Assembly (NCBI RefSeq): GCF_054482525.1
Contig: NZ_CM137006.1
Direction: 5' to 3' (one strand)
DNA length: 64,000 nucleotides
Shown: positions 40,841 to 57,120 of the stretch, piece by piece
Numbering within the stretch: the first letter of the stretch is position 1
How the letters are laid out: each line of letters begins with the position of its first letter
Program-made: the position numbers and the translations under genes
The notes under the pieces: model-generated
The model's input: only the letters and a program-made list of their open reading frames with translations
The model's database searches: none
Told to the model about the DNA's origin: nothing

Positions 40841-41449
40841 GCCGTGTGATAAGTTCAAGTTTGCTTCAGAAGATTCGAAATCTGTTGAACTATCATTGAA
40901 CTGTAGGCCGGATGAGGCGTTTTGAACTGCACCCCAAATGTTGGACATAATCTGACATCTGAAGGTGCAGTTTATGAAACATTCATTTGAAGTAAAACTT
41001 GCCGCTGTAAATCACTACCTGGCTGGTCATGCAGGCATCATTTCTACGGCAAAACTCTTTCAACTTTCTCACACCAGCCTCTCACACTGGATTAATCTTT
41101 TTCTTCTTCACGGTCCTCGGGCACTGGATTGCAGACACAAGCGTAGCTATTCTCCTGAAGATAAACTTTGCGTGGTTCTTTATGCTCTCGGGCATTCTGA
41201 GTCTCTACCCCGGGTAGCTGCCCGGTTTAACATTCCCAGCCACAACACGGTTAAAAACTGGATAAAAGGCTACCGCAAATCTGGTAATGAGGCCTTTATC
41301 AGGCGCAGGAAGGAGAAAAGCATGACCCGTTCTGATGATACCCATGAAAACGAGGCAAACATGACGCCGGAAGAGATGAAGAATGAGCTGCGTTATCTTC
41401 GCGCAGAAAATGCATATCTGAAAGCCATGCAGGAGCATCTCCTGGAAAA

Positions 41450-42354
<905 letters not shown>

Positions 42355-51439: not shown

Positions 51440-51560
51440 CTTCTGATAATTCGATTGACCGTTGGCGGATGCGGCGCGAATGCCTTGTCCGCCCCACAAC
51501 GCACCACAATCGTAGGCCTGAGAAGACGCAACAGCGTCGCATCGGGCAATCAGCATCAAA
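51440..51560. repeat. REP-like palindromic elements between yebF and yebE
   Basis: GGATGCGGCGCGAATGCCTTGTCCGCC and CGTAGGCCTGAGAAGACGCAACAGCGTCGCATCGGGC motifs. Confidence 0.5.
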
Positions 51561-51762
51561 CAGTGCTACTCAAAACGTCAAACTACTTTCACCTAAAATA
51601 CCCTTATCACCTGATATACAGTGAACACCTTACCTGGCGCGAATTTCTTTGAATAACGGCCTACCGACCCGCTTATTTGCGCATCTTTTGTCTCGATATA
51701 CATTTTCTGACATCCTCATCCGCTATGCTACAGGCACTAAAAATGGTTATTGAGGAGCAAAT

Positions 51763-52422
51763 ATGGCTAACTGGTTAAATCAACTGCAATCCTTGCTTGG
51801 GCAAAGCAGTTCTTCTGCCTCCTCGTCTGCGGATCAGGGATTGGGCAAACTTTTAGTGCCAGGCGCATTAGGCGGACTGGCTGGGCTGCTGGTCGCAAAT
51901 AAATCAGCACGTAAACTTCTTACGAAATATGGCACCAACGCGTTACTGGTTGGCGGCGGAGCGGTCGCGGGTACGGTGCTGTGGAATAAATACAAAGATA
52001 AAATTCGCGCGGCGCATCAGGACGAACCGCAGTTTGGCGCGCAAAGTACGCCGCTGGATGAGCGTACGGAACGTTTGATCCTTGCGCTGGTCTTTGCCGC
52101 TAAAAGTGATGGTCATATTGATGCCAAAGAACGTGCGGCAATCGACCTGCAATTGCGTGAAGCCGGCGTGGAAGAACAGGGGCGTGTACTCATTGAGCAG
52201 GCAATCGAACAACCGCTGGATCCACAACGCCTGGCTACCGGGGTCCGCAATGAAGAAGAGGCGCTGGAAATCTATTTCCTGAGCTGCGCGGCTATTGATA
52301 TTGACCATTTTATGGAACGCAGTTACCTGAATGCACTGGGTGACGCGCTGAAAATCCCCCAGGATGTTCGTGACGGCATTGAACGCGATCTCGAACAGCA
52401 AAAACGTACTTTGGCGGAATAA
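51763..52422 (+). CDS. yebE: DUF533-family inner membrane protein YebE
   Basis: 219-aa ORF matching YebE. Confidence 0.9.
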
Positions 52423-52585
52423 TTCCGCTCTCTGGATAGCCTGAAGTTGACTATTTCGGGCTATCCAGAACCGCACAGCCATTTGAGCAGGCTGATTTTC
52501 TCTGTCTGCATAACATTCGATATCCGCGCCATTACCTGTCATCATGTGACTGCTCCCCGCCCTGTCGGGCGAGGCTTCCCACTTC

Positions 52586-53762
52586 TTAAGCCGCAACCGT
52601 CTGTGTGACGGATTTACGCTGGCCTCCATGGGCAGAAACGACGAGTCCCGCCGCTTGTAATTCCAGTATGCCCTTGCGTTTGATGTTGAGCGCCGCGTTG
52701 ATATCGCGGTCATGTTCAACTCCACACTCTGGACACTGCCAGATGCGCTTATGTAATGGCATCTCCGACATTTTGTGACAGCAGCAGTGGCAGGTCTTCG
52801 AACTGGCGAACCATTGATCCAGTTTCACCAGATGCACACCTTTCTCTGTTGCTTTGTATTCCAGTTTTGTGATGAATCCAGACCATCCAGCATCGCCTAT
52901 CGCACGAGCCAGATGGTGATTTTTCATCATATTTGCCGTTTTCAATGTCTCGACAATTACCGCTTGGTTTTCGTCAACAATTGCGCGAGATAACTTGTGC
53001 TGGAAATCGGCACGGGCACTGGCTACCCGTTCGTGAACGGCTGCAAGTTGTATTCTGGCTTTGCGCCTGTTTGCGCTCCCTTTTTTCTTACGGGACAGTG
53101 CTTCCTGCTTCCTGCTTCCGGCGCAGGTTGCGACTTGCATTGATTAGGTGGCGGGGACTGGCAATTTTATTGCCGTCCGATTTGATGACAAAATGCGCCA
53201 GCCCCATATCCAGCCCTGTCACATTTGATATCAGTGCGGGCTTTGCCGGCGCTTCCATCCCGTCGTCACAGAGTAACGACGCGTAGTATTTCCCGGTTGC
53301 GCTGCGGCTCAACGTGATACTTTTCAGCATTCCCGTAATTTCACGATGTAAACGCGCTTCAATCGGCAAGATTTTCGGTATTTTTATCGCACCATCAAGG
53401 ACTTTTATGCCAACACAATGATAGCTCGATTGTCTGCCGTGTTTACTTTTAAAGGTTGGTTTACCTGCTTTCAGTTTCGGATTGAAAAAGTTAGAAAAAG
53501 CCACGTCGAGGTTAATTACCGCCTGCTGCAACGCAATAGAATCATATTCTTTAAGCCATCCATACCGGCGGGATTTCTTCGCCACTGCAAGCAGTGGTTT
53601 GAGGTCTTTACGCGGGTTTAAATTTACGCGGTGCCGCTGGTAAGAATGTTTCTTGATATGCAGAGCTTTGTTGTACGCAAAACGCACTGCACCGAACTGG
53701 GCGTTGATAAATTCAGCCTGTTCTGGTGTCGGATAGATGCGTACTTTTGTTGCTCTTAACAT
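52586..53762 (-). pseudogene. tnpB: tnpB (IS605 OrfB / RNA-guided nuclease family), split by a frameshift
   Basis: ORF 53088..53762 (N-terminal part, HTH and RuvC-I GLDMGL) and ORF 52586..53140 (RuvC-II IVETL, zinc finger CHCC...CPEC, RuvC-III DRDINAA) are adjacent and in different frames; the break coincides with three tandem copies of a 7-bp unit at 53100..53120. Confidence 0.75.
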
Positions 53763-53818
53763 AATCAGCGCTCATTGATATAATGCTTTTATTTTAACAC
53801 TTTAGGTGAATATATCAA

Positions 53819-54232
53819 TTGAGTAATCATGATGATTTACTGGCGGGATTTCTCCGCAAACGACACAGTGTCAGTAAGCTGGTTGTGCACCTTATTTTTA
53901 CGACAAAGTATCGACGCAAACTATTCGACAGTCAGATGATCGCTCAGTTGCGTGAGGCTTTTGGCTCCGCTGCGGCAAAGCTTGAATGCGAAATTATTGA
54001 GATGGACGGGGAGCCAGACCATGTACACCTGCTGGTTGCCTACCCGCCAAAACTGGCGGTCAGTGTGATGGTCAATAATTTAAAATCGGTATCATCACGT
54101 TTGCTACGCCAGCAGAACGCGCATTTACGTATGCAGAGTAAAACGGGGCTTTTGTGGTCGAGATCGTACTTTGTCTGTAGCACCGGAGAGGCAACGATTG
54201 AAACGCTCAGAGCCTACGTTCAGAGTCAGTAA
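53819..54232 (+). CDS. tnpA: IS200/IS605-family Y1 (HUH) transposase TnpA
   Basis: 137-aa ORF with HVHLL (HUH) motif and C-terminal catalytic Tyr context WSRSYF; apparent TTG start 9 nt downstream of an AGGTGA ribosome-binding site. Confidence 0.7.
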   Translation: MSNHDDLLAGFLRKRHSVSKLVVHLIFTTKYRRKLFDSQMIAQLREAFGSAAAKLECEIIEMDGEPDHVHLLVAYPPKLAVSVMVNNLKSVSSRLLRQQNAHLRMQSKTGLLWSRSYFVCSTGEATIETLRAYVQSQ

Positions 54233-54373
54233 ACACCTGATTGATCTTTAAAGCCCTGCGGGCTTTTCGCCTTATATCCCCGCCCGCATTGGGCGAGGGT
54301 TTACGGCGTTTTTCGCTAAGCAATGACTACCCTGTTTCGCTTGCATCTCCGGTGAGTTTTGCCACCCTTATAA

Positions 54374-57120
<2,747 letters not shown>

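What the first reader, a model, noticed from the sequence alone, without database searches (positions are those of the whole stretch)
52536..54312. IS200/IS605-family element (tnpA + tnpB) inserted between yebE and ptrB
A divergent Y1/HUH transposase gene (53819..54232) and a TnpB gene (52586..53762) are bracketed by two similar imperfect hairpins (CCCCGCCC-TGTC-GGGCGAGG at 52555..52574 and CCCCGCCC-GCATT-GGGCGAGG at 54277..54297) in the same orientation, the hallmark of single-strand-transposing IS200/IS605 elements. A TTAC lies exactly 19 nt 5' of the left hairpin (52532..52535), the same geometry as the IS608 left end. K-12 has no element between yebE and ptrB as I recall it, so this is strain-specific accessory DNA. 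TnpB proteins are the RNA-guided nuclease ancestors of Cas12.
Basis: partly seen in the sequence, partly recalled or inferred. Interest (0 to 1): 0.7.

Follow-up and report, generated by a model that had tools for sequence, protein, structure and literature searches.

The report
Known insertion sequence ISEc46, partly decayed

Summary
The element is real.

The K-12 empty site (CATCAT|CTAAGC) sets the insert at window 52546..54315, which is 1770 bp against a canonical 1763 bp. There is no target duplication.

Three independent insertion sites share TTAG next to the tnpA-side end on the minus strand. So the functional left end is at the window's right (54315), the right end is at 52546 (ends TCAC), and the active strand is the minus strand.

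The predicted DNA guides AAAC and GAAG match TTAG and TCAC under the IS608 pairing rule.

This copy is decaying:
- tnpB carries three copies of the heptamer TGCTTCC where 463 of 467 records have two imperfect copies. This is a +7 frameshift between RuvC-I and RuvC-II.
- tnpA has a TCA>TAA stop found in none of 452 records, removing 4 residues after the catalytic Tyr.

About 400 of 5426 complete E. coli genomes have this site filled. Interest is low and the element is already known.

The parts
52546..54315 (-). Whole ISEc46 copy, 1770 bp (canonical copies are 1763 bp). The top (active) strand is the window minus strand.
   Evidence: The K-12 empty site reads ...CATCAT|CTAAGC..., against window ...CATCAT|GTGACT...TTTTCG|CTAAGC. 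No base is shared at either junction and there is no duplication. The same ends are seen at two other chromosomal sites.
54316..54319 (-). Target / transposon-adjacent motif 5'-TTAG-3' on the minus strand (CTAA on plus). It lies outside the element and abuts the left end.
   Evidence: Three independent insertion sites have gcTTAG|, tcTTAG| and ctTTAG| at this end and unrelated sequence at the other end. The motif is present once in the K-12 empty site.
54256..54315 (-). Left end (LE). Imperfect palindrome CCTCGCCC-AATGC-GGGCGGGG at 54278..54298. A 17-nt spacer at 54299..54315 ends in the predicted DNA guide GL = AAAC (54299..54302).
   Evidence: Sequence. DNA fold of the minus strand: -13.8 kcal/mol, z = -2.4. 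AAAC/TTAG parallels the AAAG/TTAC of IS608 (PMC3201880).
52546..52585 (-). Right end (RE). Predicted guide GR = GAAG (52575..52578), palindrome CCTCGCCC-GACA-GGGCGGGG (52555..52574), and a 9-nt tail ending in the cleavage motif TCAC (52546..52549).
   Evidence: Sequence. The RE terminus ...GTCAC| is conserved in 78-80% identical plasmid relatives, after which the flanks diverge. DNA fold.
53819..54232 (+). tnpA, a Y1/HUH transposase of 137 aa with a TTG start. HUH is H68-V-H70 and the catalytic Tyr is Y133. It is truncated by 4 codons (STPD) through TCA>TAA at 54231.
   Evidence: NF033573 at 142 bits against a cutoff of 55. Aligns end to end with solved TnpA structures 2EC2, 2A6M (IS608) and 2XM3 (ISDra2), including PDHVHL and YVQSQ. 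RefSeq WP_000064873.1 is 141 aa. The A at 54231 is found in 0 of 452 records.
52586..53762 (-). tnpB pseudogene of 1177 nt. The N-terminal ORF is 53088..53762 (224 aa, native sequence through residue 217, contains RuvC-I GLD185MGL). The C-terminal ORF is 52586..53140 (184 aa; contains VIVE269TL, the CxxC...CxxC zinc finger and HDRD348-351).
   Evidence: The intact allele is 389 aa (WP_000942662.1) and matches ISDra2 TnpB structures 8BF8/8EXA/8H1J at E = 4e-74. RefSeq marks the identical PCN033 locus 'frameshifted'.
53099..53119 (.). Heptamer array TGCTTCC x3, the cause of the +7 frameshift in tnpB.
   Evidence: Most copies have TGCTTTC TGCTTCC. The exact x3 allele is in 2 of 467 records. A perfect x2 is in 1 record (intact tnpB), x4 is in 1 record, and the other 463 differ from perfect x2 by at least 1 mismatch.
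52780..52780 (-). Window-specific C>A substitution (plus strand). It changes Gly326 to Cys next to the first CxxC of the TnpB zinc finger.
   Evidence: The three compared copies carry C at this position.
52546..52790 (-). Predicted omega-RNA (reRNA) scaffold, covering the 3' part of tnpB plus the RE. The 5' limit is not determined.
   Evidence: By homology with ISDra2-type TnpB systems (PMC8612924, PMC10055086). The RNA fold gives -93.1 kcal/mol, z = -3.26. The consensus fold with four plasmid relatives has 67 pairs, of which only 4 have compensatory changes. No Rfam family matches.
52530..52545 (-). Predicted omega-RNA guide, which is flanking DNA read through from the RE: 5'-ATGATGACAGGTAATG-3' on the minus strand.
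   Evidence: Inference from the TnpB mechanism (PMC10055086). Together with TTAG it matches the donor joint TTAG|ATGATGACAGG seen in K-12.
53756..53818 (.). Back-to-back promoter-like sites in the 56-bp tnpA-tnpB spacer. TTAACA-17-TATAAT lies on the plus strand at 53756..53784, reading toward tnpA. TTGATA-16-TAAAAT lies on the minus strand at 53818..53791, reading toward tnpB.
   Evidence: Consensus scan scores of 11/12 and 10/12, each with an extended -10 TG. These are consensus matches only.

Best explanation
Window 52546..54315 is a copy of ISEc46, a catalogued IS200/IS605-family insertion sequence of the IS605 type (divergent tnpA and tnpB).

How it inserted. It went in without target duplication, 3' of a TTAG on the window's minus strand. 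The site is 123 bp after the yebE stop and 85 bp before the ptrB start. The copy has since been inherited in a sizeable E. coli lineage.

How such elements work (established for IS608, ISDra2 and ISGst; inferred here).
- The Y1/HUH transposase TnpA binds the subterminal hairpins of the top strand when it is single-stranded.
- It finds the cleavage sites by pairing 4-nt DNA guides at the hairpin feet with them. Here these are AAAC with TTAG at the left end and GAAG with TCAC at the right end.
- It excises a single-stranded circle, reseals the donor scarlessly, and pastes the circle 3' of another TTAG.
- TnpB is loaded with an omega-RNA made from the 3' end of tnpB plus the right end, which reads into the flank. 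It cuts the resealed empty site (TTAG + ATGATGACAGG...), so that recombination with the sister chromosome restores the element.

State of this copy. The retention arm is dead. A T>C change made a perfect tandem heptamer in tnpB, and slippage added a third copy. That puts a +7 frameshift between the RuvC-I Asp and the RuvC-II Glu. tnpA has also lost its last 4 codons to a nonsense mutation but keeps HUH and the catalytic Tyr. Both ends are intact. So the copy is at best a TnpA-only element that is mobilisable but not protected against loss. It is a decaying IS rather than an active TnpB system.
For: Identity:
- RefSeq names for the 99.9% identical locus are 'IS200/IS605-like element ISEc46 family transposase' and 'RNA-guided endonuclease InsQ/TnpB family protein, frameshifted'.
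- NCBIfam scores: NF033573 at 142 bits; NF040570 at 147 and 180 bits for the two tnpB halves.
- PDB matches to the IS608 and ISDra2 TnpA structures and to ISDra2 TnpB at E = 4e-74.

Ends and absence of duplication: K-12 empty site.

Orientation and target:
- TTAG is shared at three independent sites, with no conservation at the other flank.
- The hairpin spacers are 17 nt at the LE and 9 nt at the RE. IS608 has 19 and 10.
- Guide and target covary. ISEc46 has AAAC/TTAG and tnpA-less plasmid relatives have GAAC/TCAG. IS608 has AAAG/TTAC.
- tnpB reads toward the TCAC end, as an omega-RNA-producing right end requires.

Decay:
- Heptamer alleles.
- tnpA stop.
- Positions of catalytic motifs.

Distribution: 455 of 5426 genomes carry a near-full copy and 400 have the yebE-side junction.

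Mechanism: papers read.
Against: - Nothing here shows activity. Transposition, omega-RNA production and TAM specificity are all inferred by homology.
- Only three independent sites support TTAG, and a fifth position (C/T before TTAG) may also matter.
- The omega-RNA structure has little covariation support: 4 of 67 pairs across five sequences. No Rfam family matched.
- Whether the 4-residue truncation affects TnpA is unknown.
- The IS top strand lies on the leading-strand template by GC skew. That is the orientation not preferred for IS608 and ISDra2 (PMC5027513). This fits a stable copy that rarely excises, but it is not what the insertion preference predicts.
- ISfinder itself could not be queried, so the name rests on RefSeq annotation.
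Confidence: 0.93

Rival explanations
1. On this view the element is intact, its left end is at the window's left (52536), it inserted 3' of the TTAC at 52532..52535 with IS608-like 19-nt geometry, and it encodes a working TnpB.
For: TTAC does lie 19 nt 5' of the plus-strand hairpin at 52555. The plus strand also folds into hairpins.
Against: - K-12 retains ATTACCTGTCATCAT up to the junction, so the TTAC and the 10 nt after it are flank.
- Other insertion sites have unrelated sequence on that side and a conserved TTAG on the other.
- tnpB reads toward this end, which makes it the right end.
- tnpB is frameshifted.
Confidence: 0.02
2. The heptamer tract in tnpB is a contingency (phase-variation) switch. 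Slipped-strand changes in TGCTTCC copy number would turn TnpB off (3 or 4 copies) and on (2 or 5 copies) reversibly, rather than simply killing the gene.
For: Among the five sequences with a perfect repeat, three copy numbers are seen: x2 in 19KM1831; x3 in PCN033, SCU-102 and the window; x4 in 19KM1776. None of the 463 records with the imperfect repeat shows a length change.
Against: - Two to four copies of a 7-mer is far shorter than known contingency tracts.
- The perfect repeat is confined to 4 of 467 records, so it is a recent accident of one sublineage and not a conserved feature of the IS.
- No 5-copy in-frame allele was seen.
- Extra damaging changes in the same copy (Gly326Cys, tnpA stop) look like relaxed selection.
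Confidence: 0.04
3. The two tnpB ORFs work as a split nuclease. The 224-aa N-terminal part (WED/REC plus RuvC-I) and the 184-aa C-terminal part would reassemble on the omega-RNA. The C-terminal part would start at the internal ATG at 53140 and could be driven by the promoter-like site at 53191..53164.
For: Both halves are open and each passes the TnpB subfamily model. A promoter-like site lies just upstream of the second ORF.
Against: - No precedent is known to me for a naturally split TnpB of this kind.
- The allele is rare, in 2 of 467 records, and recent.
- The 4-copy allele in a sister strain is also out of frame.
- The C-terminal half carries a further Gly>Cys change in the zinc finger.
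Confidence: 0.02
4. The hairpins and tnpA-like gene are a REP/RAYT-type domesticated system or ancestral intergenic sequence, not a mobile IS.
For: TnpA gives a weak hit to the REP-associated tyrosine transposase model. REP-like palindromes exist nearby.
Against: - The RAYT score of 39 bits is below the 80-bit cutoff, while the IS200 model scores 142 bits against a cutoff of 55.
- The hairpin occurs only at the two element ends in the window.
- The great majority of complete genomes lack the element at this site: only 400 of 5426 carry the filled junction, and K-12 shows a clean empty site.
- The same element sits at other loci and on plasmids.
Confidence: 0.01

Closest known systems
ISEc46 (ISfinder name, IS200/IS605 family), as annotated in RefSeq E. 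coli genomes such as PCN033 and CFSAN018748
   Same: Same element at the same yebE-ptrB site, 99.3-99.9% identical over 1770 bp. Gene order, ends and hairpins are the same.
   Different: Three differences from the canonical 1763-bp copy: one extra TGCTTCC heptamer plus a T>C change in tnpB (frameshift), Gly326Cys in TnpB, and a TCA>TAA stop 4 codons before the normal tnpA end. The last two are not seen in the public copies compared.
IS608 of Helicobacter pylori, the mechanistic model for the family
   Same: - Y1/HUH TnpA; it aligns with structure 2A6M through the HUH motif and Tyr127.
- Subterminal imperfect palindromes on one strand.
- Insertion 3' of a tetranucleotide without duplication.
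- A 4-nt guide at the foot of each hairpin. The pairings are the same with one position covarying: IS608 has TTAC/AAAG and TCAA, and here TTAG/AAAC and TCAC/GAAG.
- Similar spacers of 19 and 10 nt in IS608 against 17 and 9 nt here.
   Different: - tnpA is divergent from tnpB here, as I recall for IS605. From memory, the two genes are co-directional in IS608.
- The target is TTAG, not TTAC.
- TnpA is shorter, 141 aa against 155 aa.
ISDra2 of Deinococcus radiodurans, the TnpB/omega-RNA reference system
   Same: The intact ISEc46 TnpB (389 aa) matches the ISDra2 TnpB structures 8BF8/8EXA/8H1J over residues 4-380 at E = 4e-74. The RuvC motifs and zinc finger are conserved. The right end lies directly downstream of tnpB.
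   Different: - The TAM is TTAG here. From memory it is TTGAT in ISDra2.
- The window copy cannot make full-length TnpB.
- No omega-RNA has been shown for ISEc46.
tnpA-less ISEc46-like elements on E. coli plasmids (for example p08_4358-1 and the E423 plasmid)
   Same: About 79% identical tnpB. The right-end hairpin and TCAC terminus are identical, and the left-end hairpin is of the same type.
   Different: They have no tnpA. The left-end guide is GAAC with a flanking TCAG instead of AAAC/TTAG. Many copies are truncated by IS1, IS3 or IS630 elements, some down to a 38-nt right-end remnant beside hokD.

Membership tests
IS200/IS605 family (IS605-type, tnpA + tnpB) | Encodes a small Y1 HUH transposase (TnpA) with an HUH motif and a single catalytic Tyr | tested here: met
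   NF033573 at E = 1e-41, 142 bits against a cutoff of 55. H68-V-H70 and Y133 align with solved TnpA structures.
IS200/IS605 family (IS605-type, tnpA + tnpB) | Subterminal imperfect palindromes at both ends on the same strand, with no terminal inverted repeats | tested here: met
   CCTCGCCC-N4/5-GGGCGGGG lies on the minus strand at 52555..52574 and 54278..54298. It occurs only there in the window, with a chance expectation of 0.02.
IS200/IS605 family (IS605-type, tnpA + tnpB) | Insertion without target-site duplication | tested here: met
   K-12 CATCAT|CTAAGC against window CATCAT|[1770 bp]|CTAAGC. No base is repeated.
IS200/IS605 family (IS605-type, tnpA + tnpB) | Insertion 3' of a specific tetra- or pentanucleotide that abuts the left end | tested here: met
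   TTAG lies at the LE flank of three independent sites, and the RE flanks are unrelated. Only n = 3.
IS200/IS605 family (IS605-type, tnpA + tnpB) | A 4-nt DNA guide at the 5' foot of each hairpin matching the cleavage motif, following the IS608 rule | tested here: met
   AAAC/TTAG at the LE and GAAG/TCAC at the RE. A relative has GAAC/TCAG. The IS608 reference is AAAG/TTAC. The pairing is inferred from sequence, not shown biochemically.
IS200/IS605 family (IS605-type, tnpA + tnpB) | Single-strand 'peel and paste' transposition | not testable with these tools
   Needs excision and integration assays.
ISEc46 (specific ISfinder entry) | Near-identity to the curated ISEc46 sequence | tested here: inconclusive
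   ISfinder is not available here. RefSeq/PGAP names the TnpA of the 99.9% identical locus 'ISEc46 family transposase'.
TnpB / omega-RNA RNA-guided nuclease system | A single polypeptide with the RuvC Asp-Glu-Asp triad and zinc finger | tested here: not met
   The motifs are present (D185, E269, HDRD348-351, CxxC x2), but a +7 frameshift after residue 217 splits them between two ORFs. Intact in other copies.
TnpB / omega-RNA RNA-guided nuclease system | A structured omega-RNA encoded by the tnpB 3' end plus the right end, with the guide read from the flank | tested here: inconclusive
   The fold has z = -3.26. Only 4 of 67 pairs are compensatory across five sequences. No Rfam hit.
TnpB / omega-RNA RNA-guided nuclease system | TAM-dependent, guide-dependent DNA cleavage | not testable with these tools
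   Needs a plasmid-interference or in vitro cleavage assay.
REP / RAYT (REP-associated tyrosine transposase) systems | A RAYT-type TnpA passing the family cutoff and flanked by REP arrays | tested here: not met
   NF047646 scores 39 bits against a cutoff of 80. The hairpin is present only twice in the window.

The most novel reading that the evidence does not exclude
A single T>C change in tnpB created a perfect tandem heptamer, which then became a slippage hotspot. Of the five sequences carrying it, four have expanded to 3 or 4 copies, while none of the 463 copies with the imperfect repeat shows a length change. This could be a recurrent, and possibly reversible, way in which hosts or drift switch off the TnpB retention nuclease while leaving tnpA, the ends and the omega-RNA region intact.
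Probability: 0.08. Interest if true: 0.3.

Novelty: already known. Interest (0 to 1): 0.1.

Why it matters
It matters little beyond correct annotation. ISEc46 is a catalogued IS, and about 7% of complete E. coli genomes carry it at this exact site.

The useful outputs are:
- exact ends (52546..54315);
- the correct orientation and target (TTAG on the minus strand);
- predicted DNA guides consistent with the IS608 pairing rule;
- the finding that this copy's TnpB is inactivated by a heptamer expansion and its TnpA is slightly truncated.

This copy should therefore not be counted as an active RNA-guided nuclease locus. The intact allele in related strains is a close homologue of ISDra2 TnpB native to E. 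coli, with a predicted TTAG TAM. That may be of modest practical interest.

Tried and rejected
- Rfam search of 51500..55000 at a permissive threshold gave no omega-RNA or IS605-orfB family. The only hits were a sub-threshold naRNA4/REP-like match and a spurious miRNA match on the yebE terminator hairpin.
- A consensus fold of the tnpB 3' end plus the right end with four plasmid relatives had too few and too similar sequences. Only 4 of 67 pairs were compensatory, so the omega-RNA stays an inference.
- The count of places covering at least 80% of the query cannot be read as site occupancy, because the element alone is 88% of that query. It was replaced by a junction-spanning query, which gave 400 genomes.
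- The identity bands could not separate the imperfect x2 heptamer allele from a perfect x2 allele. Megablast splits the gap to absorb the mismatch. This was resolved with a synthetic perfect-x2 query.
- I tested whether the two window-specific SNPs inside the IS indicate relaxed constraint. There are 2 of 9 SNPs relative to PCN033 in 1.77 kb of 62.6 kb, which gives a Poisson P of about 0.03 by my own calculation. This is suggestive only and too few events to claim.
- The REP/RAYT reading and the ancestral intergenic reading were both rejected.
- Pfam, structure prediction and large protein-database searches were not run. NCBIfam, PDB and RefSeq annotation already settle the family.
Full report
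**What is at the coordinates**

The region contains a 137-aa ORF at 53819..54232 (+). It also contains TnpB-like coding sequence at 52586..53762 (-), and two nearly identical imperfect hairpins in the same orientation.
- The motif CCTCGCCC-N5-GGGCGGGG occurs nowhere else in the 64-kb window, with 0.02 matches expected by chance.
- The 'TnpB gene' is not one ORF. The span is 1177 nt and is split into a 224-aa ORF (53088..53762) and a 184-aa ORF (52586..53140) in different frames.

**Identity**

- The tnpA product matches NCBIfam NF033573 (IS200/IS605 transposase) at 142 bits against a curated cutoff of 55.
- It stays below the cutoff of the REP-associated transposase model, at 39 bits against 80.
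- The two tnpB halves match successive parts of the TnpB models: profile positions 2-214 and 211-360 of NF038281.
- Against solved structures, TnpA aligns end to end with Sulfolobus, IS608 (2A6M) and ISDra2 (2XM3) transposases, including PDHVHL (HUH) and the C-terminal YVQSQ.
- The intact allele of TnpB, taken from strain CFSAN018748, matches ISDra2 TnpB (8BF8/8EXA/8H1J) over residues 4-380 at E = 4e-74.
- The whole region is 99.9% identical to E. coli PCN033. There RefSeq annotates 'IS200/IS605-like element ISEc46 family transposase' and 'RNA-guided endonuclease InsQ/TnpB family protein', with the latter flagged as a frameshifted pseudogene.
- ISEc46 appears routinely in mobile-element listings in the literature; 23 papers mention it.

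So this is a known IS.

**Exact ends**

K-12 MG1655 has a 208-bp yebE-ptrB spacer with no element. Aligned to the window it reads ...ATTACCTGTCATCAT|CTAAGCAATGAC.... The window reads ...CATCAT|GTGACTGCT...GGCGTTTTTCG|CTAAGC....

The insert is therefore 52546..54315, or 1770 bp. No base is ambiguous at either junction and there is no target duplication. It sits 123 bp after the yebE stop and 85 bp before the ptrB ATG.

**Orientation and target**

I fetched ISEc46 copies at two other chromosomal sites. One interrupts an IclR-family regulator gene (L005). The other lies next to an integrase remnant by a tRNA-Arg gene (L006). Read on the strand on which tnpB is sense (the window minus strand), the three sites look like this:

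| Site | tnpA-side junction | Far-side junction |
|---|---|---|
| yebE-ptrB (window) | gcTTAG\|CGAAAAACG | ...GCAGTCAC\|atgatg |
| IclR gene (L005) | tcTTAG\|CGAAAAACG | ...GCAGTCAC\|ccttga |
| integrase remnant (L006) | ctTTAG\|CGAAAAACG | ...GCAGTCAC\|cagggc |

- The target is therefore TTAG. It abuts the tnpA-side end, which is the functional left end (LE, window 54315).
- The right end (RE) is at 52546 and ends in TCAC.
- The TTAG is present once in the K-12 empty site.
But it and the 10 bases after it are ordinary flank present in K-12, so the IS608-like geometry on that side is a coincidence.

On the correct strand the geometry does resemble IS608.
- The LE cleavage site is 17 nt 5' of the hairpin foot and the RE terminus is 9 nt 3' of it.
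- In IS608 the figures are 19 and 10 nt (PMC3201880).
- In IS608 the 4 nt at the 5' foot of each hairpin guide cleavage by pairing with the cleavage motif (GL AAAG with TTAC).
- Here the equivalent tetranucleotides are AAAC for TTAG and GAAG for TCAC.
- tnpA-less plasmid relatives have GAAC, and two of them with different flanks are bordered by TCAG.

The guide and target change together, which is what the family's mechanism predicts. Both hairpins fold as single-stranded DNA on the minus strand with a T-G mismatch in the stem.

**State of the genes in this copy**

Compared with an intact copy (CFSAN018748, TnpB 389 aa, WP_000942662.1), the window has TGCTTCC TGCTTCC TGCTTCC at 53099..53119. 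Most copies have TGCTTTC TGCTTCC there.
- The extra 7 bases shift the frame after residue 217. That lies between the RuvC-I motif GLD185MGL and the RuvC-II motif VIVE269TL.
- The zinc finger and the HDRD348-351 motif are also downstream of the shift.
- No single product can carry the whole active site.

Heptamer alleles across the 467 E. coli records that hold this segment:

| Allele | Records | tnpB state |
|---|---|---|
| perfect x3 (as in the window) | 2 (PCN033, SCU-102) | frameshifted |
| perfect x2 | 1 (19KM1831) | annotated intact |
| perfect x4 | 1 (19KM1776) | frameshifted |
| at least 1 mismatch from perfect x2 | 463 | the imperfect allele in every copy inspected, none with a length change |

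The simplest history is a T>C change (Lys218Glu) that made the repeat perfect, followed by slippage.

The window has two further changes not present in PCN033.
- C>A at 52780 gives Gly326Cys beside the first CxxC of the zinc finger.
- C>A at 54231 turns TCA into TAA and removes the last four residues (STPD) of TnpA. No record among 452 has this stop. HUH (H68-V-H70) and the catalytic Tyr133 remain, and Tyr133 aligns with Tyr127 of IS608 TnpA. Whether the truncation matters is unknown.

Over the whole window there are only 9 substitutions relative to PCN033, and 2 of them fall in the IS. That fits relaxed constraint but is too few events to prove it.

**Distribution**

- A near-full copy is present in 455 of 5426 complete E. 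coli genomes.
- A query spanning the yebE-side junction is fully matched in 400 genomes.
- So this is a lineage-wide insertion, not strain-specific DNA.
- Related copies of 78-80% identity, mostly tnpA-less or truncated, lie on plasmids.

**How it works**

Steps shown here:
- family membership of both proteins;
- intact ends;
- no duplication;
- target TTAG;
- guide-target complementarity;
- the frameshift.

Steps inferred from IS608, ISDra2 and ISGst work (PMC3201880, PMC8612924, PMC10055086, PMC5027513):
- TnpA binds the top-strand hairpins in single-stranded DNA and cleaves 3' of TTAG and 3' of TCAC.
- It releases a single-stranded circle and reseals the donor to TTAG|ATGATG.... It then integrates the circle 3' of another TTAG.
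- TnpB, loaded with an omega-RNA covering the tnpB 3' end and the RE and reading into the flank (guide ATGATGACAGGTAATG...), cuts that resealed joint. Recombination with the sister chromosome then restores the IS.

Supporting but weak evidence:
- The last 245 nt of the element fold more stably than shuffles (z = -3.26), but covariation support is thin.
- The 56-bp tnpA-tnpB spacer holds back-to-back promoter-like sites.

In this copy the nuclease arm is broken, so any excision would not be repaired by homing. In addition, the top strand lies on the leading-strand template, since the GC skew of the plus strand is positive in all eight bins. That is the orientation in which IS608 and ISDra2 excise poorly. 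Both points fit a quiescent, slowly decaying copy.

**Comparison and novelty**

It is ISEc46, and it works like IS608/IS605 for transposition and like ISDra2 for TnpB.
- All sequence-testable defining features of the IS200/IS605 family are met.
- The feature 'intact TnpB' is not met in this copy.
- The omega-RNA is unproven.

Nothing here is new in kind. The only mildly unusual point is the heptamer slippage series in one sublineage. I give a reversible-switch reading about 4-8% probability.

**Verdict**

Novelty: already known. Interest: 0.1.

Noticed in passing
window 40924..42354: An IS1397 copy (IS3 family, RefSeq name) lies between hexR and pykA. It is inserted in the loop of a REP/PU palindrome (ggccggatgaggcgtttt | IS | ttttcgccgcatccggc). 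It is absent at this site in the nearest relative PCN033, which has 6 copies elsewhere, so it is a recent transposition in this strain.
   Followed up: partly
L015:1501-1538 and many other E. coli plasmids; corresponds to window 52546..52583: A 38-nt solo right end of ISEc46 (hairpin plus the TCAC terminus, 100% identical) sits beside hokD on many plasmids, with no annotation. It is what remains of a plasmid-borne copy truncated by IS1 or IS3 elements. Longer versions at the same site are seen in L016-L018.
   Followed up: partly
L013:2479-2520 and L017:2273-2315: tnpA-less ISEc46 relatives on plasmids keep a left-end hairpin directly upstream of tnpB. Their predicted left-end guide is GAAC and both are flanked by TCAG. 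ISEc46 has AAAC/TTAG, so guide and target covary. No empty site was checked for these.
   Followed up: partly
window 52546..54315 relative to the whole window: The GC skew of the plus strand is positive in all eight 8-kb bins. The IS top (minus) strand therefore lies on the leading-strand template. This is the orientation not preferred for IS608/ISDra2 insertion and excision.
   Followed up: partly
window 53164..53191 (-): A promoter-like site (TTGTCA-16-TAAAAT, 10/12) lies inside tnpB, just upstream of the internal ATG at 53140 that opens the C-terminal ORF. It could drive the 3' part of tnpB or the omega-RNA region. Consensus match only.
   Followed up: no
window 51515..51566 (-): A sub-threshold match to naRNA4 (28 bits against a gathering score of 59.5), i.e. 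a REP-type palindrome, lies between yebF and yebE.
   Followed up: no
window 52431..52469 (+): A perfect 11-bp-stem hairpin (TCTGGATAGCC...GGCTATCCAGA) lies 9 nt after the yebE stop and is also present in K-12. It is probably the yebE terminator. The IS inserted downstream of it and 85 bp upstream of ptrB, with tnpA co-directional with ptrB, so ptrB expression might be affected.
   Followed up: no
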